Shown: positions 37,131 to 46,933 of the stretch, in pieces
Layout: each line of letters begins with the position of its first letter
How positions within the stretch are numbered: the stretch's first letter is position 1
DNA from: Cyanidioschyzon merolae
Lineage: Eukaryota
Reading direction: 5' to 3' (one strand)
Length of the DNA: 64,000 bases
Assembly: GCA_000091205.1 (NCBI GenBank)
Contig: AP006485.2
Notes under the pieces: model-generated
Database searches by the model: none
Told to the model about the DNA's origin: nothing
What the model saw: the letters and a program-made list of their open reading frames with translations, nothing else
Translations under genes and position numbers: made by a program

Positions 37131-38660
37131 CTACGCTTCCCCAATCGCTGGCTGCACGTAGACAAACTCCTCGACATAAGGATGCGGCAAACTTTTGTCT
37201 TGCACATCGGGACAAATTTCCGAGCTCGACGGTACACAGTCTCGCGGGCAGGTCCAGATCGCAATCGTTCCGAAATCCAAAACAGCACGCGGGTCTTCGG
37301 AACGCACTCCACGTGTCGCCGGCGTCTGAGTAGGGCACTGTTCCGCAGGTTCCAGTTCGTTTTCCGACTCCCGGCAGAGATAATAAATTAACTGCGACAT
37401 GACCTGCACTTCGAAAACTCGTGGCATGCCGCAGAGGCCACAAGGAGGCACCTGTGCGGCTTCAAGCCTCGACTTGGATCCGAACCACAGGATCTGCTGA
37501 TTCGAAATCGTAGCTAGCTTTTGCGGGTTGTTCACAGCGATCATCGCAAGACGATCATGCAAGGGCAGGTATCGAATGACTTGGTTTCGATGGCTCCCAA
37601 GCGCCTGCTCGAATGCAAGTGCATCCGACAAATCAGAACAGCGTAAGTTTTGCTCTGTCTCGATTGTTTCTATGAATGATATCCATTCTGCTGCCGAGCA
37701 TGCATGCTCTTTTGTAGGTGCAGCATCCTCTGCGTCTACGTTCACCACACGGAGTTCCGATTCTTCAACTTGGTCGTCGATGACGCCGCTGTCGTGCTCG
37801 GAGTCGCTGTCCCAGTCGACGAGAATTTCGACCGCCGGGAAGCCGAGAGAGGGCTCCTCAGAGATGGTTGCGTCCGCCCCAGATTTGTCGTATGCTGCGT
37901 GTGCTCGCCGCGAACTTGTTCCGCCTACACGCGTCTGCTCTGCTGTTTGCTGCGGAGCCACTGCAGCGGCCGCTTGAAGCGCATCAAAACTGGCGGTGTC
38001 AGCGGCAGCACCCCGGTGTGGCGACGGAGGCGGATCAAGCCCCGACAACCCCGCCGACAAGTTCGCAGGGTACCGACGCAACGCTTCCAGGTCTTCGACT
38101 TGATCTGGGTACCAGCTATTGTGCTGTGGCAGCTGCACCCTGTATACTCGAGCAGCGCCTGAATTGTCGGCGGATCGACTAGCGCACCACGCACAGATGA
38201 ACAAGTACAACACGCGATGAAACGCCGCCGCATTGTGCCCCCGGGGCGCGTACACTTGCAAAAGGAAACGAAGTTGTCGTTTGCACGAGCCGCATCGTAA
38301 TCTTTTCGTGGCTAGGCCAGCGGGGAGCGGCACCAACCAGGCCGGTGTGCCGCCCGCTCGCGACTCGAACGGTGTCCACTGTTTCGACCTGAACAGCTCC
38401 CGTTCATACACACCGTCCTCGACGCAACCCAATATAATAGAAGATTTTGAGACTTCAACGTCCATGAAGGGTTCCAAGCAGTGCATAAAGATCTCAACGC
38501 TCACGTCTAGCGCTTCTGGTGTTTTGCATTCCCCAGAGGCTTTCGCATCGGGAGTGCCAAGTGCACCCGCCAGCACGTGTTGTGCCAGCACCGGGTCGCA
38601 CCGACAGGTCCGCAGGTACATGACGATTCTCGTGCGCAACCTCTGGTGCACGACCTGCAC
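37131..38660 (-). CDS. PDCD2 / PDCD2-like (TSR4-type) protein with a long low-complexity insertion; the likely start is the Met of 'MHCLEPFMDVEV' near 38486
   Basis: N-terminal 'GGTPAWLVPLPAGLATKRLRCGSCKRQLRFLLQVYAP' matches the PDCD2 N-region. The C-terminal PDCD2_C part reads 'CGLCGMPRVFEVQVMSQLIYYL...LDFGTIAIWTCPRDC'. Confidence 0.75.
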   Translation of the reverse strand: MQVVHQRLRTRIVMYLRTCRCDPVLAQHVLAGALGTPDAKASGECKTPEALDVSVEIFMHCLEPFMDVEVSKSSIILGCVEDGVYERELFRSKQWTPFESRAGGTPAWLVPLPAGLATKRLRCGSCKRQLRFLLQVYAPRGHNAAAFHRVLYLFICAWCASRSADNSGAARVYRVQLPQHNSWYPDQVEDLEALRRYPANLSAGLSGLDPPPSPHRGAAADTASFDALQAAAAVAPQQTAEQTRVGGTSSRRAHAAYDKSGADATISEEPSLGFPAVEILVDWDSDSEHDSGVIDDQVEESELRVVNVDAEDAAPTKEHACSAAEWISFIETIETEQNLRCSDLSDALAFEQALGSHRNQVIRYLPLHDRLAMIAVNNPQKLATISNQQILWFGSKSRLEAAQVPPCGLCGMPRVFEVQVMSQLIYYLCRESENELEPAEQCPTQTPATRGVRSEDPRAVLDFGTIAIWTCPRDCVPSSSEICPDVQDKSLPHPYVEEFVYVQPAIGEA

Positions 38661-38669
38661 GCTTCAGGG

Positions 38670-41018
38670 ATGACTGCCTCTGAAGACGAACGAGCTCCGC
38701 TTGATTGGAGTCTGGACTATGTAAGGTACTTAGAAGCGAAGGAACGGATCGATGATCGAGCCATTCACTGCGAGCTCTGGGAGCGGTTTACGGGGTTCCT
38801 GCACAGCCAGCTGAGCCAAGGCCAAGCCGCAGCGACCCGACTGGAGCCGCTGCGCATCATTGACGTGGGTGCGGGTATCGGCTCGCTACTTTTTCGCTTA
38901 CTGGCAAGTTGGGAGCACGCGGAAGCGCTTGAACAAGTACGAACGTACCGTCGAGGGGTGGAATACTGGGCAGTCGACCTCAAGTCGCAGCTCCTGCGTG
39001 CACTGCTCCAGCGTCTGCAGAGCGTCGCAGCCAGCAATGAGAATCCCTGGCAATTGGAGCGCTATCATTTAGAAACGAACGTGGTGGACCACTCAAATGA
39101 CGACGAGTTGCACCAGTGCCTATCTGGTTTTGACCTCCACCGTGCCGCTGATCGCGATCAGCGACCGGCCTGCTCGCAAGCGATCCGAGCAGCTGCCACA
39201 GGTCAGGCGACTCGCGCAGAAAGCCCAGCGCCTGTAATGGACATGAAGACGCCCCTGGAACCAGGTCCAAAAACTCAACAAACAGTTGTTGTCGTTGGTG
39301 GTGGTGGTGGTGGTGGTGCTCAGAAAGCCACAGCTACTGCGGCCTCACTGGAGCATACGCGCCAGCATCGAGCCGGTGAAACTACTGGCGACGACACTAG
39401 GCACGTCGCCGAGCCACAAATCGGCCCTGGTGCGGCTTCAGTAGAAACAAGACGTTTTGAAGATAGCGACATGCCCGCCGGAACTCCAACAACGGATCCG
39501 CAAACGCATCATGCGTCGTGCCTGGGGTCAGCGAAGCTGGTACTGAAGGCATCATCGACTGGTTTCTACCTCAACGTACACTGCTATCAAGGCGATGCAG
39601 AAACTTTCTGTACGCAGCATCCCGGCACTGCAGAGGTGCTGTGGGCGTCATCTTTTTTCGATCTGCTGCTGAACGAGGCCGCCGCTGGGAGCGCATCGAA
39701 CCTGGCGTATGCGCGTTTGCGCGCCGCAATGCCCCGATTGCTGGCGACACTCAAACCCTATGGCGTATTTTATTTCCCTTTACATTACGACGGCATGACT
39801 TACTGGCTACCTAATTTTGATCCATCAAGCGCAGCGTATGAAGCAGAGCAGCAGGTGCTGGCAGCCTTTCATCGCTCGCTGAACCCCGATTGCACCGGCT
39901 TTTGTGGCCAAGCGCTCCTGGATGTTATACAAGACGCAGCGATACCTGCGCCTGCAGCATGTGATTGTACCTTTGGATACGTCACAGCGGGAGAAGTTTC
40001 TGCAGACGAACCGGCATTATCGAGTGCTGGCGTATCTCCCCAGCGTGTGCCACGAAGCACACAGCAAACCTTGGCGTCCGACTCGCTCTGCGCAATTCGT
40101 TCGGGGGCGTACGTACAGACGGCTGCTGGACAGCGCCTGGCCGGACCGCACGCGGCGATGCGACCCATGGTTACGGGCTTGGCACCCAGCACATGGTGTG
40201 TCCAGCCGTTTGCTGGGCTCGGCGTCTATTTGCCATCCACTGATGCCTATTTTCTCGAATGTATACTTAAGCTCATCGGTGGAGCTGCCTGGTCAAGCGC
40301 TTGCACCGCGTCAGAGAGGGCACGCATTGAGCGCTGGTACCAACAGCGACGCGAGCAGTTGCAGCAACGGCTGCTGACCTATGTTGCCCACAATATCGAT
40401 CTGCTAGGAATCGTCATTCCAGCGAGAATCCAGACTCGAGCGGTTGCCCGTGGCCCGGTCTTGCACTCGCCGACGGTTTGCGATTCGAGTATGGCGCCCG
40501 TACTGATGGGGATGACCGCGCGGGCCCGAGTGCCCGCCTTTGCCAAAAGTATAGAGCCAGTTGGCGTTTTCTCGTACGGAACGCTGCAATCGCCCCGCGT
40601 ACTACAAACCATTTTGGGACGCATTCCCCGATCGGTTGCCGCTGTGCTCAACGGGTATCGCGTCCACGGGGTGCGAGATGAATCATACCCAGCAGTGGCG
40701 AAATCAGCACCGGAAAATGCGCCGCACGAGGCCGTACCTGGCGTATTGCTTCTCGAGCTTACTGCAGCCGATCACGCGCTGCTGGACGCCTACGAAGGCC
40801 CACAGTACCAAAAACTGGTGGAAGAGGTCCAGATTCTGCCCCTGGGCATGAGACTCAGAGCTTTCGTGTACGTTTGGAAATCTTCCACTGATAATCTCGT
40901 TGCCTTACCGAACCAACACTGGGATTTGGATGCCTGGACGCGAACACATGAACAGAGTTTTTGCCAGGAATGCTCAGAATGGATCCGTACATTCAAGTCG
41001 GCAAATGCGGCTGAGTGA
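38670..41018 (+). CDS. Two-domain protein: N-terminal Rossmann/SAM-methyltransferase-like motif and C-terminal AIG2/gamma-glutamyl(amine) cyclotransferase-like domain, with long low-complexity inserts
   Basis: First ATG at 38670 ('MTASEDERAPLDW'). 'LRIIDVGAGIGSLLFRLL' is a methyltransferase motif-I-like stretch. The C-terminal 'GVFSYGTLQSPRVLQTILGRIPRSVAAVLNGYRVHGVRDESYPAV...VPGVLLLELTAADHALLDAYEGPQYQKLVEEV' fits the GGACT/AIG2 'YGTL...YP...V.G.L..L...LD..EG' pattern. Confidence 0.55.
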   Translation: MTASEDERAPLDWSLDYVRYLEAKERIDDRAIHCELWERFTGFLHSQLSQGQAAATRLEPLRIIDVGAGIGSLLFRLLASWEHAEALEQVRTYRRGVEYWAVDLKSQLLRALLQRLQSVAASNENPWQLERYHLETNVVDHSNDDELHQCLSGFDLHRAADRDQRPACSQAIRAAATGQATRAESPAPVMDMKTPLEPGPKTQQTVVVVGGGGGGGAQKATATAASLEHTRQHRAGETTGDDTRHVAEPQIGPGAASVETRRFEDSDMPAGTPTTDPQTHHASCLGSAKLVLKASSTGFYLNVHCYQGDAETFCTQHPGTAEVLWASSFFDLLLNEAAAGSASNLAYARLRAAMPRLLATLKPYGVFYFPLHYDGMTYWLPNFDPSSAAYEAEQQVLAAFHRSLNPDCTGFCGQALLDVIQDAAIPAPAACDCTFGYVTAGEVSADEPALSSAGVSPQRVPRSTQQTLASDSLCAIRSGAYVQTAAGQRLAGPHAAMRPMVTGLAPSTWCVQPFAGLGVYLPSTDAYFLECILKLIGGAAWSSACTASERARIERWYQQRREQLQQRLLTYVAHNIDLLGIVIPARIQTRAVARGPVLHSPTVCDSSMAPVLMGMTARARVPAFAKSIEPVGVFSYGTLQSPRVLQTILGRIPRSVAAVLNGYRVHGVRDESYPAVAKSAPENAPHEAVPGVLLLELTAADHALLDAYEGPQYQKLVEEVQILPLGMRLRAFVYVWKSSTDNLVALPNQHWDLDAWTRTHEQSFCQECSEWIRTFKSANAAE

Positions 41019-41388: not shown

Positions 41389-41420
<32 letters not shown>
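41388..41420. repeat. (GTC)n microsatellite, about 11 units
   Basis: Seen directly: 'gtcgtcgtcgtc...'. Confidence 0.9.
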
Positions 41421-41780
41421 TGCATTCTTGGTGCACCAAGCAGCTGCCAGCATGCATGCTCCTGCCATTCGACAACCAGGCGCGTCTTGCTGTTCGATTG
41501 CGCAGTGTTCTGGGACACGTCCGCCTTTACAAACGGTACTGCGCAAGAGGCCCGCATAGCGCGACAGCACTGCGCGCCGCTTCGTTGCTCCATCTGGTGA
41601 GCCACTGGACCAGGCACCGTTTCGATAGGGCGCGTCCAGCTAAACGGCACAACCTGCGTCCCGGCGAATACAGAGCAACCAAGACATTGGCAATCGGGCG
41701 GCATACCCAGGCCCGGCGCATGCCGCAAGACCCTGATCCCCGGCCGTGTGTTCTGGCGCGCTGAACGTACTGGACACGGG

Positions 41781-41803
41781 CAGCAGCAGCAGCAGCAGCA
41801 GCA
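41781..41803. repeat. (CAG)n microsatellite
   Basis: Seen directly. Confidence 0.9.
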
Positions 41804-41831: not shown

Positions 41832-42656
41832 TCAGTGACGATGCGTCAGGACGACACCGAGAACGATCGCTAGGATGATCAAGATCACTAAAACGATGAT
41901 ACAGCTCGCCGCGGCCACATTCTTTTGACACATGCGTTTCTTCAAGGTTCCCGACTGCCGCTGAAACGTACCCGCCGTATTCCGGAGCGCATCGGCCTGC
42001 TCCACGAGGTCATCCAAGCGTTCGCCACGCTCCAAGACGTCTTCGATGTTGCGCTGCATCACAGCGTGAATGTCACGAACCTCGCCCTGGAGCTGGGCGA
42101 TCTTGTCCTGCCTCGTTGTGTACGTCTGGGTCAGCGCTTTGAGCGTTGGGCGAAACGCAGCGTCCAGGGCGTCCGGTTTCGTCATTCTCCGCAGGTCAGC
42201 GGGCGCATATCGCGATTCAAACTGTTCACGTACTTGCTGTAGAAAATCAAAAGCCAGTTGTCTGGGGTACCCACGCAAACACACTGCCAAGTAGATGAGG
42301 TCCTGATGAACCTGAACGTGATACCCGACGTTTCCACTGTCGTACGAGGTGCGCACATCCGTCCCAGTCGGCGTTTTATTCAAAATTCGATCCGCAATTT
42401 CCTCGAACTTTGGGCGCTCTCCCGCACCGAGACCCTCCTGGATCGCTCGACGGTCCAGGTAGGTTACCAGACGCACGGAGCTATTCCCGACAGTGACGAA
42501 GAGGATGCGTCGCGGTGCGGGGGCTGGTCGCTCCGTCTGTCCAGCACTGTCGTCGCTGCTGCGTGCCTTGCTCAAGTTTGCGTCATCACTATTCGAAACG
42601 GAGAGAGCGTTCGTCCCTTTTGAAAGGGAGGTGTTTGCCGCAGTAGTGCGCTCCAT
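41832..42656 (-). CDS. Longin-domain R-SNARE, VAMP7-like (longin plus synaptobrevin SNARE motif plus C-terminal TM)
   Basis: ATG at 42654-42656 ('MERTT...'). The longin region reads 'ILFVTVGNSSVRLVTYL...YLAVCLRGYPRQLAFDFLQQVREQFESRY'. The SNARE motif is 'LQGEVRDIHAVMQRNIEDVLERGERLDDLVEQADALRNTAGTFQRQSGTLKKRMCQKN' and the TM is 'AAASCIIVLVILIILAIVLGVVL'. Confidence 0.8.
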   Translation of the reverse strand: MERTTAANTSLSKGTNALSVSNSDDANLSKARSSDDSAGQTERPAPAPRRILFVTVGNSSVRLVTYLDRRAIQEGLGAGERPKFEEIADRILNKTPTGTDVRTSYDSGNVGYHVQVHQDLIYLAVCLRGYPRQLAFDFLQQVREQFESRYAPADLRRMTKPDALDAAFRPTLKALTQTYTTRQDKIAQLQGEVRDIHAVMQRNIEDVLERGERLDDLVEQADALRNTAGTFQRQSGTLKKRMCQKNVAAASCIIVLVILIILAIVLGVVLTHRH

Positions 42657-42865
42657 GAACTGCACACCCGTAATCCACGTTCAGGGAGGAAAGCGGACAG
42701 GCGCGTTCTGCTGTCGTTGGCATCGATCGTTTCCCCGTCGACTAGGACACGTCAGAGGTGTCGTCTCGAGTGACGTTCCCTTCGCCGCGGTCTTCCGTTA
42801 TTCGGGCACTTCTACCGAGGACGTCTGTGTTTATTGAAGGTTATTATTCATAAAACGAAAACTTC

Positions 42866-45800
42866 ATGAGAGGTAATGGCTTGGCTTGGTCTAGGTTGCT
42901 CTGGGGGCTCGTTTGGCTTGGAGTCGTGGTGTTGGCGTTCGCGAACCGAGCCACGGGGCAGCGTTATCCCCAGAGCACGTGGATCCTTGAAGAGCGAAAT
43001 CTACTTACACTGCGTCAGACCACACCACTGGAGCCAGTGCTGGGAAACAGCACTGCTGTACCCAGTGCGCGTGCATCGGTGACGGCGAGCGCGTCGCTCA
43101 ACCCGAACGCAACGCTGCTCTCGGTGCGACCCAGCGTTTCGGAGACGGGAACGCCATCGCCGTCAACAACCACAGCGACTCCAACGAGTACGGTGCTGCC
43201 GTCACCGCTGCCGTCGCCTAGCACAACGGCGACGAGCTCGCCGAGCCCGACGCCCATGGCAAGCAGCGGGCCCGCTGCAACCCCGAGTTTCCCGAGCCCG
43301 TCACCAGATACCGGTGTGGTGAACCTGCTGGCGAACTCGGGCAACGTCAGTCTATCATTGTATGAGAACAGAACGTTTCAGGAGGCGTTCGCACAAACGC
43401 TCGTGTCCAACCTGCAGAGCCAGTGCGTGCGGTGTCAGAACGCTTCAGCTATTCAATTAACCATGTTCAGGTACACATCTGGTTACTTTCGCCTGAATCA
43501 CTCCAACAGCTCCCGAAACAACACCTCGGATACCAGTGGCAATGGAGGCAACGGGCCGGTAACGGCACCGGTGCTGACCAACCGTCGACGCCGCATGCTT
43601 CAAACCTGGCAATGGCTCACTGGGAAGCGCTCGACCTCGCCTCCCGTGCAGAACATCGCTGGGTCTGTCGTTGGACGTGCCAGCAGCACCGCTGGATCCG
43701 GCACAAGCGACGGAACCGATGTTGCAGTGGCGTTGCAGGTGGCGGCGGACCCAGCGGATATACCCACGGTTGAGAATCGAACCTCGTCGGGGCTCCTGAC
43801 GGCGGTGCTCGCTACCAGTTCGAATATCACCAATGCCTCGATGCAGGTCGTCGCTCGCACCGCAGCGTTCGGTGAGGGTGCCGAGGACCCGTTCAAGGGC
43901 TCCGGGCTCGGTAGCGTCCACAGCGGGGCGGTGTCCACAGGTGCCATTGTGGGTGCAGTGATCGGCTCTGTGGCTGGCGTCCTGCTGGCGATGATCTTCG
44001 CCTTCATGCTTTGGAGACGGTGCCGACGCCAAGCGGCGAAGCAAGAGGCACTCCGCACCAAGGAGGCTGCCGAGGCAGCTGCCCGCAAGTATCGCGAGCA
44101 ACAGTCCGCTATGGCTGCTGCTGCCGCCGCTGCACAGCGCCTCTCGAGCGGCTCTGGTCGACCGATTCCACCAACATTACCGCAAGACCAGTCCGCTGGT
44201 GGAGACGCCGCATCACGTGCTCGCTATGCTGGCGTTGTGACGCTGCGGGAGCTCGCTCGAACGCGTATTCTCCAAGGCATGATGCGCATCGTGCAAGCTG
44301 CCGAGGCGGAGTCGAACGCTGCGTCTGCCGCACTCATTCGTAGCGATAACCAACGCAAACTGGTATTTTTGATCGTTGCAGATCGACGTGCGCTAGCGGT
44401 ATTGTCGGCAGCGTGTCGCTTGACAGACCTCATCCAAGAGGGTGCCTTCGTGGTGGAGTCGCTCGAGAGTGAGCGTGAGCCATTGCCGCGCATGTCGGCG
44501 GTGTATTTTGTAGCGCCGGAGCTAGCTTCATTCGATCGCCTTGTTGCCGACTTCCCGGATACGCAAACCGCAGCACATCCATCAGACGGGGCCGGTCAGC
44601 GCCTCGCTGACGCTGGTCCAGGGACGAGCGTCAGCCGCACGGCGCCAAGGAGCGCTGGGTCCGGCCCCGAGAGCGGCGCTGCGGGGCGTCTGGCGGCGAG
44701 TCCCGCGAACGCGCGTACACCACGGGCTCGCTGGGGTTCGGGCGCTGCACCCGGGCCACCCGGCGCTACCACGACAGCTTCGGGGCCACGCTATCGAGCG
44801 GCACATGTGTTCACCACGGCTCGCGTGCCAGATGCGCTGTTGGACCTTCTGCGGCAGTCGTCGTGTCTGGTCCAGCGGCTCTTGACGTTTACGGAGCTCA
44901 ACCTGGACTTTATGGCTATCGAGGAGCGCATCTTCTCCCTGGACTATCCGAATGCACTGGAGATGCTATTCGCCCCGGGCAGTGCCGCAGGTCACGATGA
45001 TGATCATGATGGTGCTGCGCTTCCAGGCTGGGCATCTGCCTGGGATGCACGCCCAGCAGCGTTGCAGCCGCCCCCAGGCGCCTGTTCGGATATGGTCCAG
45101 CGTATTGCCCAGAACCTGCTGACGCTCTGCCACCTTCTGGGCGAGGTGCCAACGATTCGCTACCAACGAAGCGAAAGCGGCGTTGCGCAGAGCATCGCTG
45201 AGGCGCTCCTCGACGCCATCCGAGACTACGAGGCCAATGTACCCGGCGGGATGCGTGGTGCGCAGCTGGAAGCGGCTGCCGTCGAGCAGAACGCCAGCAC
45301 CGCAGCAGCTCCCAGCGAGGACAAGTCCTCTGCTGGTACCAGCACCAATACCATGCTGCTGATTCTGGACCGTTCTGTGGATATGGTGGCTCCCTTTCTC
45401 CACGAATATACGTACCAGGCGATGTGCAACGATCTGCTAGCAGCGGATGCGCTGGATAGCGGCACCACGCGCTATACCTACGTGGTGCGTGAAGGCGACT
45501 CCACCGCCAGCACCACCCGGGAAGCCTTTCTGGACGAGTACGCTGACCAGACCTGGGCCCGTCTTCGTCATCTGCATATCGCGGACGCTATCAGCGAGAT
45601 CAGCGAGGAGCTGCAGGGAACTACAGTGCGTTCATTGGGCGCCGCGCTGCAGGGCGCCTCCGCTGCTCGAAACGCGCCCCCGGAGAGCACTGCCATGCCC
45701 TATGAACAGATGCAGAAACTGAGCAAATACGCGGTGCACATGGATATCCTAGATTGTCTGATGCATCGTTTCAATGATCGGTATCTTCAGCGTACCTCGC

Positions 45801-46933
45801 TTTGTGAACAGGATCTCGCGTGTGGTCTAGTGGATTGTCACGGGAACCTGCTCTCGTCGACAGAGGCAGCACAGCGGATTTCGTTGATCCTCCAGGATGC
45901 GCATGTGCCGCTGGAGGACAAGGTGCGCTTGTTGGCAATCGTGCTGGTCACCATGGATATGAGTGCACGTGATGTCGACGATCTCCTGGAGACCATGGAG
46001 GATGTGGGTCTAGGGCGAGAACTCGTGTCGGCGTTGCTACGTGCACGCCTGGGTGTGCATCTCGCCAAGGAGCCTGGTGAGTGCCAAGCGCTTGCGGAGC
46101 GTGCGCTGCGCTACTTTCGCGCAAGTCGTGGCGAATCCTACGATCTATCTCGCTATGTTCCGTTCCTGCGGGAAATCCTTGAAGCTATTGCGCGTGATCG
46201 TCTCTCGCGGAGTCGGTTTCCGATCCTCTTCAGTGCAGAGCGGGAGTCGGCAGGTCGCCAGCCCCCAGACGACGCGTTGACGCGAGGCCGCTCACGCTCG
46301 CTCTCGCGGGAGCGAGACGTTGCCGGTCGGGTACCTACGCGGAACCGCGCAGCCTCGGTACGCAGACGACGCTCATCATCGGTCGTGCGTCGTCGCTCTG
46401 ACTCTGCCGATGACCTGGAGCGCGGTTCAGGGCGAGAGCTCTCCAGTGCCAGCGAAGACGAAGCCGCTACCCTGAATGGAACCGAGCGGATTAGTGATAG
46501 CAAACGACCTCGTCGACGGGTGGTCGTCTTTATTGCTGGTGGCATGTGCGCGTCTGAGATGCGAGTTAGCTACGAGGTATCGGCGGAGTTGCCGCTGAAT
46601 GTGTACCTTGGAGCGACGCATGTGTTGACGCCTACTCGGATGCTTGAGGCACTGCGAGGCCTGAATCGCACGCTGTACGCTGGCGAGATGCAACGAGAAC
46701 GTCGACCAGTGAGTGCTTCAGAGCAGCGTCGTGGTGCACGTTCGACACCTGCGGTATGGCCACCACCGGGCGAGCCGAGTACCAGCGGCAACCTGCGACT
46801 GGGTACCGGGCTTGCCTCTGAAGCTGCCACCGCGTTTGATAGTGCCGCAACTCCTTATCCCTCGAATGACGGCTTTGCACCGCGCAGGCGTCGTTCAAGT
46901 AGTCTTTCGCGCTTTTTCAGCCGTCGGTCATAG
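42866..46933 (+). CDS. Sec1/Munc18 (SM) family protein as a single 1355-aa ORF, with an in-frame N-terminal signal peptide, S/T/P-rich mucin-like region and TM helix preceding the SM domain
   Basis: ATG at 42866 with signal peptide 'MRGNGLAWSRLLWGLVWLGVVVLAFA'. The TM and stop-transfer is 'GAIVGAVIGSVAGVLLAMIFAFMLWRRCRRQ'. SM motifs are 'RKLVFLIVADRRALAVLSAACRLTDLIQEGAFVVESLESEREPLPRMSAVYFVAPELASFDRLVADF', 'LLILDRSVDMVAPFLHEYTYQAMCNDLL' and 'RVVVFIAGGMCASEMRVSYEVSAELPLNVYLGATHVLTPTRMLEAL' (closest to the Munc18/Sec1 C-terminus). Confidence 0.75.
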   Translation: MRGNGLAWSRLLWGLVWLGVVVLAFANRATGQRYPQSTWILEERNLLTLRQTTPLEPVLGNSTAVPSARASVTASASLNPNATLLSVRPSVSETGTPSPSTTTATPTSTVLPSPLPSPSTTATSSPSPTPMASSGPAATPSFPSPSPDTGVVNLLANSGNVSLSLYENRTFQEAFAQTLVSNLQSQCVRCQNASAIQLTMFRYTSGYFRLNHSNSSRNNTSDTSGNGGNGPVTAPVLTNRRRRMLQTWQWLTGKRSTSPPVQNIAGSVVGRASSTAGSGTSDGTDVAVALQVAADPADIPTVENRTSSGLLTAVLATSSNITNASMQVVARTAAFGEGAEDPFKGSGLGSVHSGAVSTGAIVGAVIGSVAGVLLAMIFAFMLWRRCRRQAAKQEALRTKEAAEAAARKYREQQSAMAAAAAAAQRLSSGSGRPIPPTLPQDQSAGGDAASRARYAGVVTLRELARTRILQGMMRIVQAAEAESNAASAALIRSDNQRKLVFLIVADRRALAVLSAACRLTDLIQEGAFVVESLESEREPLPRMSAVYFVAPELASFDRLVADFPDTQTAAHPSDGAGQRLADAGPGTSVSRTAPRSAGSGPESGAAGRLAASPANARTPRARWGSGAAPGPPGATTTASGPRYRAAHVFTTARVPDALLDLLRQSSCLVQRLLTFTELNLDFMAIEERIFSLDYPNALEMLFAPGSAAGHDDDHDGAALPGWASAWDARPAALQPPPGACSDMVQRIAQNLLTLCHLLGEVPTIRYQRSESGVAQSIAEALLDAIRDYEANVPGGMRGAQLEAAAVEQNASTAAAPSEDKSSAGTSTNTMLLILDRSVDMVAPFLHEYTYQAMCNDLLAADALDSGTTRYTYVVREGDSTASTTREAFLDEYADQTWARLRHLHIADAISEISEELQGTTVRSLGAALQGASAARNAPPESTAMPYEQMQKLSKYAVHMDILDCLMHRFNDRYLQRTSLCEQDLACGLVDCHGNLLSSTEAAQRISLILQDAHVPLEDKVRLLAIVLVTMDMSARDVDDLLETMEDVGLGRELVSALLRARLGVHLAKEPGECQALAERALRYFRASRGESYDLSRYVPFLREILEAIARDRLSRSRFPILFSAERESAGRQPPDDALTRGRSRSLSRERDVAGRVPTRNRAASVRRRRSSSVVRRRSDSADDLERGSGRELSSASEDEAATLNGTERISDSKRPRRRVVVFIAGGMCASEMRVSYEVSAELPLNVYLGATHVLTPTRMLEALRGLNRTLYAGEMQRERRPVSASEQRRGARSTPAVWPPPGEPSTSGNLRLGTGLASEAATAFDSAATPYPSNDGFAPRRRRSSSLSRFFSRRS

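What the first reader, a model, noticed from the sequence alone, without database searches (positions are those of the whole stretch)
42866..46933. Sec1/Munc18 protein encoded in-frame with a signal peptide, mucin-like ectodomain and TM helix
The first ~445 aa of the 1355-aa ORF look like a type I membrane glycoprotein. They have a signal peptide, long S/T/P-rich tracts and a TM helix followed by a basic stop-transfer 'RRCRRQ'. The ORF then runs without a stop into a complete Sec1/Munc18 domain. SM proteins are normally soluble cytosolic SNARE chaperones, so a membrane-tethered SM protein would be unusual. The alternative is two genes fused by a lost stop or an assembly error. The next in-frame Met before the SM domain is 'MAAAAAAAQRL' near 44106.
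Basis: partly seen in the sequence, partly recalled or inferred. Interest (0 to 1): 0.75.

Follow-up and report, generated by a model that had tools for sequence, protein, structure and literature searches.

The report
Membrane-anchored Sec1/Munc18 protein of a red alga
This is a real, conserved gene of the red alga Cyanidioschyzon merolae (CMC019C) in which a normally soluble vesicle-fusion chaperone (Sec1/Munc18) is built as the cytosolic tail of a signal-peptide-bearing, mucin-like, single-pass membrane glycoprotein, an arrangement I found described nowhere in the text of the papers searched.

Summary
Window 42866-46933 (+) is one 1355-codon ORF, identical in coordinates to the annotated gene CMC019C ("vesicle transport protein Rop") on C. 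merolae chromosome 3.

It encodes, in order:
- a signal peptide
- a 56% Ser/Thr/Pro tract
- a sequon-rich alpha/beta ectodomain
- one TM helix followed by WRRCRRQ
- a ~70-aa linker
- a complete Sec1/Munc18 domain closest to Munc18-1

The "two genes or assembly error" alternative is rejected:
- The uninterrupted ORF recurs in an independent environmental assembly.
- It is kept in Cyanidiococcus, Cyanidium and a Galdieria-like lineage, with the same neighbours where these can be seen.
- The junction is among the best-conserved segments.
- The internal Met414 is Lys in Cyanidium.

Supplementary tables of a 2026 Plant Cell paper flag CMC019C as having a signal peptide and one TM segment. They show it about 20-fold higher in the walled diploid phase, together with its head-to-head neighbour, a VAMP7-like R-SNARE.

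Most likely it is a type I membrane-anchored exocytic SM paralogue serving diploid-phase secretion. This is inferred, not shown.

The gene model is public, but the architecture is undiscussed in the literature I could search. I rate it a new variant of a known kind. One continuous transcript and one polypeptide remain unproven.

The parts
42866..46933 (+). Whole CDS of CMC019C (1355 aa plus stop), annotated as 'vesicle transport protein Rop' (BAM78966.1 / XP_005535252.1 / UniProt M1UNJ5)
   Evidence: ORF. An exact-sequence look-up gives the accessions. The GFF in a paper supplement gives NC_010129.1 CDS 42866..46933.
42866..42958 (+). Signal peptide region, aa 1-31. The hydrophobic core is aa 5-29; cleavage is likely after AFA25 or ATG31.
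   Evidence: Kyte-Doolittle peak of 1.81. The paper's authors flag the protein as SignalP 'SP(Sec/SPI)'. An N-terminal hydrophobic segment is present in all full-length orthologues.
42971..43315 (+). Mucin-like Ser/Thr/Pro-rich tract, aa 36-150
   Evidence: 56% S+T+P. The tract is present but length-variable in orthologues. A PT-rich exon lies upstream in the Galdieria-like locus L006.
43313..43870 (+). Membrane-adjacent alpha/beta ectodomain, aa 150-335. It is built of two beta-alpha-beta halves split by a disordered loop, has invariant C187/C190 and carries 10 N-X-S/T sequons.
43940..44011 (+). Transmembrane helix, aa 359-382 (GAIVGAVIGSVAGVLLAMIFAFML)
   Evidence: Kyte-Doolittle maximum of 2.53. 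The authors' Phobius run gives 1 TM segment. The segment is helical in both models and conserved in every orthologue.
44012..44146 (+). Basic stop-transfer motif WRRCRRQ plus a conserved juxtamembrane helix, aa 383-427. It contains Met414 (44105-44107).
   Evidence: Both models give one continuous helix from the TM segment to about aa 426. Many residues are invariant. Net charge is +5. Met414 is Lys in Cyanidium.
44147..44230 (+). Pro/Ser/Gly-rich flexible linker, aa 428-455
   Evidence: pLDDT is below 50 for model residues 77-111. The Galdieria-like homologue has an S/P-rich linker of about 85 aa in its place.
44231..46675 (+). Complete Sec1/Munc18 domain, aa 456-1270, predicted to be cytosolic
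   Evidence: Pfam PF00995, E = 4e-82. Against PDB sequences, Munc18-1 scores 4e-57, far better than Sly1 at 5e-12 and Vps45 at 8e-8. The alignment spans Munc18-1 residues 30-588. The AlphaFold2 core has pLDDT 80-95. Foldseek TM-score on the target is 0.83-0.87 to Munc18-1, Munc18-2 and squid Sec1.
44573..44776 (+). Disordered insert 1 in the SM domain, aa 570-637, lying between Munc18-1 residues 97 and 98
   Evidence: Alignment gap. pLDDT is below 50 for model residues 225-292.
46241..46498 (+). Arg/Ser-rich insert, aa 1126-1211, in the loop equivalent to Munc18-1 505-531. It contains invariant blocks such as SVRRRRSSS.VRRRS.S..DLERG.
   Evidence: pLDDT below 50 for model residues 781-866. A phosphoregulatory role is only inferred.
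46676..46930 (+). Disordered C-terminal tail, aa 1271-1355, ending in a near-invariant basic motif RRRRSSSLSRFF(S/Y)RR
   Evidence: for the invariant columns. for pLDDT below 50.
41832..42656 (-). CMC018C, a VAMP7-like longin R-SNARE. It lies head-to-head with CMC019C and is co-expressed with it in the diploid phase.
   Evidence: Pfam Longin plus Synaptobrevin. The adjacency is conserved in Cyanidium, Cyanidiococcus and L007, and in G. partita as g1422/g1423. TPM is about 78 in diploid cells and below 1 in haploid cells.
42657..42865 (.). Shared 209-bp divergent promoter. A block at about 42705-42755 is conserved with Cyanidiococcus.
   Evidence: Alignment. Synonymous sites between the same two species are saturated. 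A regulatory role is inferred.

Best explanation
CMC019C encodes one polypeptide that is a type I integral membrane protein.

Topology. A cleavable signal peptide sends the N-terminus into the ER lumen. A mucin-like S/T/P tract and a glycosylated, membrane-adjacent alpha/beta domain end up outside the cell or in the lumen. One TM helix with a basic stop-transfer motif fixes the orientation. A linker of about 70 aa (a conserved helix plus a flexible Pro-rich stretch) holds a complete exocytic-type Sec1/Munc18 domain in the cytosol, probably within roughly 10-20 nm of the membrane (my estimate from linker length).

Consequence. An integral membrane protein must travel ER to Golgi to vesicle to plasma membrane. 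The SM chaperone therefore rides on the secretory carrier next to R-SNAREs and then stays in the target membrane next to its syntaxin. It does not have to be recruited from the cytosol.

Proposed role. It is one of an expanded set of SM paralogues in Cyanidiophyceae, several of which carry signal-peptide or TM flags. It is transcribed mainly in the walled diploid phase, from a bidirectional promoter shared with a VAMP7-like R-SNARE. I propose that it chaperones or templates SYP1/VAMP7 SNARE assembly for diploid-phase secretion of cell-wall or matrix material. Permanent anchoring may substitute for the exocyst-dependent recruitment that this lineage lacks.

Shown here: the ORF, its conservation, the predicted topology features, the SM fold and subfamily, and co-expression (from published tables).

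Inferred: a single transcript and polypeptide, glycosylation, localisation, SNARE partners and the exocyst-replacement idea.
For: One conserved gene
- The ORF matches the annotated CDS exactly.
- An independent assembly keeps the frame.
- Three genera separated by saturated synonymous divergence keep one ORF between the same neighbours.
- A Galdieria-like lineage keeps a PT tract, ectodomain, TM helix, linker and SM domain.
- pN is well below pS in the N-terminal part, and the junction is 77-80% identical to Cyanidiococcus.
- Met414 is not conserved.

Topology
- Hydrophobic segments, charge bias across the TM helix, and 7-11-fold or greater sequon enrichment on the N-terminal side in all full-length orthologues, none after the TM helix in Cyanidium.
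- The authors' SignalP and Phobius flags.

SM domain
- Identity and integrity.
- Residues aligned to Munc18-1 K46, E59, P335, L341 and L348 are R518, E531, P945, L952 and M959.

Expression
- CMC019C: about 80 TPM in diploid cells, 3-4 in haploid Ha3 and about 15 in 10D.
- CMC018C: about 78 TPM in diploid cells and below 1 in haploid cells.
[quoted passage not shown] The G. partita ones that show the flags are the diploid-biased ones seen in the table excerpts. The paper counts 10 SM genes per genome.

Context
- C. merolae lacks a canonical exocyst.
- An artificially membrane-anchored Munc18c domain-3a peptide stimulates fusion only when placed in cis to t-SNAREs.
Against: - I have no transcript-structure or peptide-level evidence that the N-terminal and SM parts sit on one molecule. 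TPM values are per gene model.
- An internal start or proteolytic release giving a soluble SM form is not excluded. Met414 is conserved between Cyanidioschyzon and Cyanidiococcus.
- The ectodomain model rests on only 4 sequences (mean pLDDT 57). Its fold matches are generic ferredoxin-like hits.
- Homology of the ectodomain to the Galdieria-like N-terminus is not significant (hhalign E = 0.06).
- The organism behind P0170/P0171 is not identified.
- SNARE partners, localisation and the link to the missing exocyst are conjecture.
Confidence: 0.75

Rival explanations
1. Artefact. Two adjacent genes, a small type I glycoprotein and a normal soluble Sec1, were merged by a sequencing or assembly error or by a strain-specific loss of a stop codon.
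For: SM proteins are otherwise soluble. An in-frame Met (aa 414) lies shortly before the SM domain.
Against: - An independent environmental assembly has the same open frame.
- Two Cyanidiococcus assemblies, Cyanidium, a further fragment (P0021) and Galdieria-like contigs have it too.
- There is no drop in constraint at the junction, which is 77-80% identical at the amino-acid level while synonymous sites are saturated.
- There is no room for a terminator and promoter between the two parts.
- Met414 is Lys in Cyanidium.
Confidence: 0.02
2. One ORF, two products. The full-length membrane protein is made, but the functional SM chaperone is mostly a soluble form. That form would arise from an internal transcription or translation start near Met414, or from proteolytic release of the cytosolic part.
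For: - Met414 is conserved in Cyanidioschyzon and Cyanidiococcus.
- The flexible Pro-rich linker (aa 428-455) would be accessible to proteases.
- Haploid 10D cells show an intermediate TPM, which could reflect a different transcript.
Against: - Met414 is Lys in Cyanidium and in P0021. The next Met residues (471/472) lie inside the first SM helix.
- The Galdieria-like linker has no in-frame Met between the TM helix and the SM start.
- Strong conservation of the TM and juxtamembrane region argues that the tether itself is selected.
Confidence: 0.13
3. The ectodomain is the functional module, acting as a cell-surface or wall sensor or adhesin. The SM-like domain would then be a repurposed cytosolic scaffold that no longer chaperones SNAREs.
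For: - The N-terminal layout (signal peptide, S/T-rich stalk, small domain, TM helix) resembles surface sensors and mucins. This is my own knowledge, supported by the fold hits.
- The genome holds 10 SM genes, so some may have taken on new functions.
- The SM domain carries three large inserts.
Against: - The SM core is under strong purifying selection (dN/dS about 0.10).
- It superposes on Munc18 with a TM-score of about 0.85.
- It keeps residues aligned to Munc18-1 K46, E59, P335 and L341.
- Its pairing and co-expression with an R-SNARE gene are conserved.
Confidence: 0.1

Closest known systems
Munc18-1/STXBP1, Drosophila Rop, yeast Sec1p and plant KEULE/SEC11 (exocytic SM proteins)
   Same: - Full PF00995 domain.
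- Best sequence matches (E = 4e-57) and best structural matches (target TM-score 0.83-0.87).
- Residues aligned to K46, E59, the P335 hinge and L341 are conserved.
- A disordered C-terminal tail, as in yeast Sec1p.
   Different: - All of these are soluble or peripheral proteins with no signal peptide or TM helix.
- CMC019C adds about 455 N-terminal residues (signal peptide, mucin-like tract, ectodomain, TM helix, linker).
- It also has three disordered inserts, one of them Arg/Ser-rich.
Other Cyanidiophyceae SM paralogues flagged with a signal peptide and/or TM segments: CMI070C, Cd. caldarium g153 and g912, G. partita g718, g1423 and g1424
   Same: All are classed 'SEC' (SM) with SignalP and/or Phobius TM flags. 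The ones I saw with both flags are diploid-biased. G. partita g1423 also sits next to a VAMP71 gene.
   Different: I could not retrieve their sequences. A profile of the CMC019C ectodomain found only direct orthologues among 1.84 billion representatives, so the paralogues probably carry different ectodomains.
Mucin-type proteins with an SEA domain (MUC1, MUC16) and the MAD12 domain of protocadherin-15
   Different: - There is no Pfam SEA match.
- The 'GSVVG' at aa 269-273 resembles the SEA autoproteolysis motif but is not conserved.
- The fold hits are generic.
- The cytosolic part is an SM domain, not a short tail.
Fungal cell-wall integrity sensors Wsc1/Mid2 (from my own knowledge)
   Same: Signal peptide, O-glycosylated S/T-rich stalk, single TM helix, and a cytosolic effector-binding part. 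They are linked to cell-wall construction.
   Different: No sequence relationship was tested or expected. Their cytosolic tails are short and recruit Rho-GEFs rather than containing a SNARE chaperone.
Engineered or partial membrane attachment of SM elements: TMD-anchored Munc18c domain-3a peptide (PMC9547204) and the amphipathic helix of Sly1 (PMC10943277)
   Same: Both show that holding SM elements at a membrane can promote SNARE-dependent fusion or close-range tethering.
   Different: These are an artificial construct and a peripheral amphipathic helix. Neither is a natural, co-translationally inserted type I membrane anchor with an ectodomain.

Membership tests
Sec1/Munc18 (SM) family, Pfam PF00995 | Full-length match to the family profile above the curated threshold | tested here: met
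   277.7 bits against a cut-off of 30.7, covering profile positions 3-574 of 575.
Sec1/Munc18 (SM) family, Pfam PF00995 | Three-domain arch-shaped SM fold | tested here: met
   The AlphaFold2 core has pLDDT 80-95 and pTM 0.65. Foldseek target TM-scores are 0.83-0.87 to Munc18-1, Munc18-2 and squid Sec1.
Exocytic Sec1/Munc18/Unc18 subfamily (as opposed to Sly1, Vps45, Vps33) | Closer to Sec1/Munc18 than to the other three SM clades | tested here: met
   - Sequence: Munc18-1 4e-57, Sly1 5.5e-12, Vps45 8e-8, and no Vps33 hit.
- Structure: target TM-score 0.83-0.87, against 0.72-0.78 for Vps45 and Sly1 and 0.56-0.64 for Vps33.
- No phylogeny was built. Koumandou et al. 2007 placed a C. merolae sequence in the Sec1 clade, but I did not establish which gene it was.
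Exocytic Sec1/Munc18/Unc18 subfamily | Conservation of residues implicated in syntaxin binding and SNARE templating in Munc18-1 (K46, E59, the P335 hinge, L341, L348) | tested here: met
   The aligned residues are R518, E531, P945, L952 and M959. The roles of the Munc18-1 residues come from my own knowledge.
Exocytic Sec1/Munc18/Unc18 subfamily | Binds a Qa-SNARE (syntaxin/SYP1) and promotes SNARE assembly | not testable with these tools
   This needs binding and fusion assays.
Sec1/Munc18 (SM) family | Soluble or peripheral protein with no signal peptide or TM segment (a typical property, not a formal criterion) | tested here: not met
   A signal-peptide-like segment at aa 5-29 and a TM helix at aa 359-382. 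The authors' SignalP and Phobius runs give a signal peptide and 1 TM segment.
Type I single-pass membrane glycoprotein | N-terminal signal peptide | tested here: met
   A hydrophobic N-terminal segment in all full-length orthologues. 'SP(Sec/SPI)' in the published table. I ran no dedicated predictor myself.
Type I single-pass membrane glycoprotein | One TM helix with positive charge on the cytosolic side | tested here: met
   Kyte-Doolittle 2.4-2.9. Net charge is +4 to +7 after the helix and 0 or -1 before it, in 8 sequences.
Type I single-pass membrane glycoprotein | N-glycosylation sequons concentrated on the lumenal side | tested here: met
   2.2-3.4 sequons per 100 aa before the TM helix and 0-0.4 after it in the full-length orthologues. 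Fisher p = 2e-5 for the window protein. Actual glycosylation was not tested.
SEA domain (PF01390) / mucin family | Match to the sequence profile | tested here: not met
   No Pfam family other than Sec1 at E <= 0.01. The profile search of PDB sequences gave only non-significant hits to TM segments.
SEA domain (PF01390) / mucin family | Ferredoxin-like alpha/beta sandwich next to the membrane | tested here: inconclusive
SEA domain (PF01390) / mucin family | Conserved G/SVVV autoproteolysis motif | tested here: not met
   'GSVVG' (aa 269-273) lies in a low-confidence loop and is absent from the orthologues.

The most novel reading that the evidence does not exclude
Cyanidiophyceae have turned the soluble SM chaperone into a family of integral membrane proteins that ride on secretory carriers. 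The SM domain is delivered in cis with the R-SNARE and then kept next to the syntaxin. This would replace the exocyst-dependent recruitment the lineage has lost, while the mucin/SEA-like ectodomain couples SNARE assembly to the state of the cell wall or matrix in the diploid phase. It would be the first natural transmembrane SM protein, and a natural experiment on whether membrane recruitment is the rate-limiting job of exocytic tethers.
Probability: 0.2. Interest if true: 0.85.

Novelty: new variant of a known kind. Interest (0 to 1): 0.62.

Why it matters
SM proteins are textbook soluble or peripheral factors. How they are recruited to the right membrane, and whether they act from the vesicle side or the target side, is still debated.

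A naturally transmembrane, ectodomain-bearing Sec1/Munc18 has several useful properties:
- It is conserved across an ancient algal class.
- It is duplicated into several paralogues.
- It is paired with an R-SNARE gene.
- It is switched on in the walled diploid phase.
- It occurs in an organism that lacks a canonical exocyst and can be modified by homologous recombination.

That makes these questions directly testable by deleting the anchor, swapping the ectodomain, or relocating the protein.

It also cautions annotation pipelines: labels such as 'Rop' or 'syntaxin-binding protein 1' hide a 455-residue membrane module. Prokaryote-style gene callers truncate the protein to 1155-1224 aa.

Tried and rejected
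- Word-indexed protein searches with a low-complexity-trimmed SM query and with the Galdieria-like P0171 returned few hits and no Cyanidiales paralogues. I could not inspect the sequences of CMI070C, CMD164C or the G. partita genes and rely on the published SignalP and Phobius columns.
- A profile of the N-terminal 316 aa against 1.84 billion representatives found the ectodomain only in direct orthologues. About 700 other hits cover only the TM helix and basic juxtamembrane stretch and are compositional.
- hhalign of the ectodomain against the Galdieria-like N-terminus was not significant (E = 0.06), although the beta-alpha-beta pattern looks similar by eye.
- A PDB profile search with the N-terminal region gave only non-significant matches to bitopic TM segments such as ErbB2, CD4 and FcRn.
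- SEA-type autoproteolysis was considered because of 'GSVVG' and rejected because the motif is not conserved.
- The AFDB50 structure library was unavailable.
- An exact-sequence contig look-up for the window protein found nothing. The Logan contig L007 proved to be genomic, so it gives no transcript evidence.
- The sigma-70 promoter and terminator scan is not applicable to a eukaryote and found nothing.
- No tRNA or Rfam match occurs in the window.
- Literature searches for CMC019C or for natural membrane-anchored SM proteins found no discussion of this architecture.

Full report
**What is there**

One search lists a single ORF at 42866..46933 (+) of 1355 aa. It starts at the first possible ATG, 15 nt after an in-frame TAA.

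An exact-sequence look-up identifies it as C. merolae 10D BAM78966.1 / XP_005535252.1 / UniProt M1UNJ5, "vesicle transport protein Rop". A GFF in the supplement of a 2026 Plant Cell paper (PMC13353863) gives NC_010129.1 gene CMC019C, CDS 42866..46933. The window is therefore the first 64 kb of chromosome 3, and the ORF is exactly the public gene model.

Pfam finds only Sec1 (PF00995), at aa 503-1261, covering profile positions 3-574 of 575 with E = 4e-82.

**The N-terminal 445 codons are coding sequence, not chance**

- This frame is open, while the other five frames have 8-13 stops over the same stretch.
- Base composition predicts 13 stops, so P(none) is about 2e-6.
- Against Cyanidiococcus, synonymous sites are saturated (pS 0.78) while pN is 0.30 for aa 1-445.
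- For the TM and juxtamembrane stretch (aa 346-445), pN is 0.18 and amino-acid identity is 77%.

**Anatomy**

- Hydropathy gives two peaks, aa 5-29 and aa 354-386.
- Residues 36-150 are 56% Ser/Thr/Pro.
- Residues 150-335 hold invariant Cys187 and Cys190 and 10 N-X-S/T sequons.
- An AlphaFold2 model built from 4 sequences (mean pLDDT 57, core 72-85) shows two beta-alpha-beta units separated by a disordered loop.
- The TM helix (aa 359-382) is followed by WRRCRRQ. Net charge is +5 inside and -1 outside.
- Sequon density is 3.4 per 100 aa before the TM helix and 0.3 after it (Fisher p = 2e-5). The same asymmetry holds in every full-length orthologue.
- Both models continue the TM helix as one helix to about aa 426, followed by a low-confidence Pro-rich stretch to about aa 455.
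- Whether or not the signal peptide is cleaved, the SM domain is predicted to be cytosolic.

**The SM part is complete and of the exocytic type**

- Against PDB sequences it matches Munc18-1 at 4e-57, followed by Munc18-2, squid Sec1, Munc18-3 and Monosiga Unc18. Sly1 scores 5.5e-12 and Vps45 8e-8. Vps33 is not hit.
- The alignment runs over Munc18-1 residues 30-588, with three inserts.
- A model of aa 346-1355 built from 22 sequences has pTM 0.65. pLDDT is 80-95 in the core and below 50 in the linker, the three inserts and the last 85 residues.
- Foldseek gives target-normalised TM-scores of 0.83-0.87 to Munc18-1, Munc18-2 and squid Sec1. Vps45 and Sly1 give 0.72-0.78, and Vps33 gives 0.56-0.64.
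- Residues aligned to Munc18-1 K46, E59, P335, L341 and L348 are R518, E531, P945, L952 and M959. The functional meaning of the Munc18-1 residues comes from my own knowledge.

**One gene or two?**

- Cyanidiococcus yangmingshanensis (two assemblies, 1376 and 1342 aa) and Cyanidium caldarium (1310 aa, 46-48% identity) encode the same signal peptide, S/T/P tract, ectodomain, TM helix, linker and SM domain in one ORF.
- In both genera the gene lies between a longin R-SNARE gene, head-to-head, and a 5'-nucleotidase gene, as in the window.
- An independent environmental contig (L007) of a near-identical strain has the same start codon and an open 1354-codon frame. It shows 14 synonymous differences, 8 non-synonymous differences and one in-frame 3-nt deletion.
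- A 356-aa fragment of a further lineage (P0021) also runs from the TM helix into the SM domain.
- Contigs with 41% G+C and GTAAGT-type introns, which I call Galdieria-like although the organism is not verified, encode an ectodomain, the TM helix GAIAGIVIGSVAG...WWWRKR, a linker of about 85 aa and an SM domain. An upstream exon encodes PTKSPTPSPTPSPSPTPTPSPTPSPTPT.

The artefact or lost-stop reading is therefore rejected. A minor soluble isoform or proteolytic release cannot be excluded without transcript or protein data.

**Published context**

PMC13353863 states that each Cyanidiales genome has 10 SM genes and Galdieria has 8, several of them diploid-biased. It proposes that SM proteins act with phase-specific SYP1 syntaxins in wall formation.

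Its main text does not mention signal peptides or TM segments in SM proteins. Its tables do flag them:

| Gene | Signal peptide | TM segments | TPM diploid | TPM haploid Ha3 | TPM haploid 10D |
|---|---|---|---|---|---|
| CMC019C | SP(Sec/SPI) | 1 | about 80 | 3-4 | about 15 |
| CMC018C (VAMP71 neighbour) | none | 1 | about 78 | below 1 | below 1 |

Other flagged SM genes are:
- CMI070C (1 TM segment)
- two Cd. caldarium genes (signal peptide plus 1 TM segment, diploid-specific)
- G. partita g718 (signal peptide plus 3 TM segments)
- G. partita g1423 (signal peptide plus 1 TM segment, next to VAMP71 gene g1422)
- G. partita g1424 (2 TM segments)

No paper in the searchable library mentions CMC019C or a natural transmembrane SM protein. 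Two surveys report that C. merolae lacks a canonical exocyst.

**How it most likely works**

Shown, from sequence and prediction:
- a type I topology with the SM domain in the cytosol
- a conserved tether of about 70-90 aa
- conserved pairing and co-expression with a VAMP7-like R-SNARE gene

Inferred:
- The protein follows the secretory route, so it sits on carriers next to the R-SNARE and afterwards in the plasma membrane next to SYP1.
- There it chaperones or templates SNARE assembly for secretion of wall or matrix material in the diploid phase.
- Permanent anchoring could substitute for exocyst-mediated recruitment of Sec1.
- Reconstitution work shows that a TMD-anchored Munc18c domain-3a peptide stimulates fusion only when it is in the t-SNARE membrane. 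This fits action from the target membrane.
- The mucin/SEA-like ectodomain may serve sorting, retention or wall contact. That is speculative.

**Comparison and novelty**

The protein passes the sequence and fold tests for the SM family and for the Sec1/Munc18 subfamily. It fails the family's typical property of being soluble. It does not qualify as an SEA-domain protein.

A profile of the ectodomain finds only direct orthologues among 1.84 billion representatives.

The gene model is public, and its signal peptide and TM segment are flagged in a supplementary table. Nothing about the locus itself is therefore new. The architecture, its class-wide conservation and its implications appear undescribed in the literature I could search. 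I rate it a new variant of a known kind, with interest 0.62.

Noticed in passing
window 42657-42865, block at about 42705-42755: The 209-bp divergent promoter shared by CMC018C and CMC019C contains a block, GTTCTGCTGTCG..GGC..ATCGATCGTTTC..CGTCGAC..GGACACGTC, that is conserved with Cyanidiococcus even though synonymous sites between the two species are saturated. It is a candidate cis-element for diploid-phase expression.
   Followed up: partly
window 41832-42656 (-): CMC018C is a VAMP7-like longin R-SNARE with a low-complexity N-terminal extension of about 85 aa. Its adjacency to the SM gene is conserved in Cyanidium, Cyanidiococcus and L007, and in the G. partita table as g1422/g1423. It is essentially diploid-only, at about 78 TPM against below 1.
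   Followed up: partly
window 41389-41420 and 41780-41803: Perfect trinucleotide arrays, (GTC)x10.7 and (GCA)x8, lie in the region between the 3' ends of CMC017C and CMC018C. They produce the poly-Ser, poly-Cys and poly-Arg spurious ORFs seen.
   Followed up: no
window 43574-43591 (aa 237-242): A polybasic 'NRRRRM' lies in a low-confidence loop of the ectodomain. R241 is invariant, and Cyanidiococcus has RRRL. It could be a kexin-type processing site that splits the ectodomain, but this is untested.
   Followed up: no
window 46241-46498 and 46886-46930: Two motifs are invariant across three genera: Arg/Ser-rich blocks inside an SM-domain insert (SVRRRRSSS.VRRRS.S..DLERG) and the extreme C-terminus RRRRSSSLSRFF(S/Y)RR. 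They look like phosphoregulatory or membrane-binding motifs. Function is unknown.
   Followed up: no
JGI and Logan proteins P0001, P0003, P0007-P0019: Prokaryote-style gene calling on hot-spring metagenome contigs truncates this protein to 1155-1224 aa by starting at internal GTG or ATG codons. This removes the signal peptide and the mucin-like tract.
   Followed up: yes
window 38577-41018 (+): CMC017C ('similar to AIG2') carries a C-terminal GGACT/AIG2-like gamma-glutamyl cyclotransferase domain on a protein of about 800 aa. Its N-terminal part gives only weak methyltransferase-like hits.
   Followed up: no
L003 3171-6068 and L006 3181-4701: In the Galdieria-like contigs a 965-aa ORF with no Pfam match follows the SM gene directly on the same strand. 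I did not establish how it relates to G. partita g1424, which is annotated 'sec1' with 2 TM segments.
   Followed up: no
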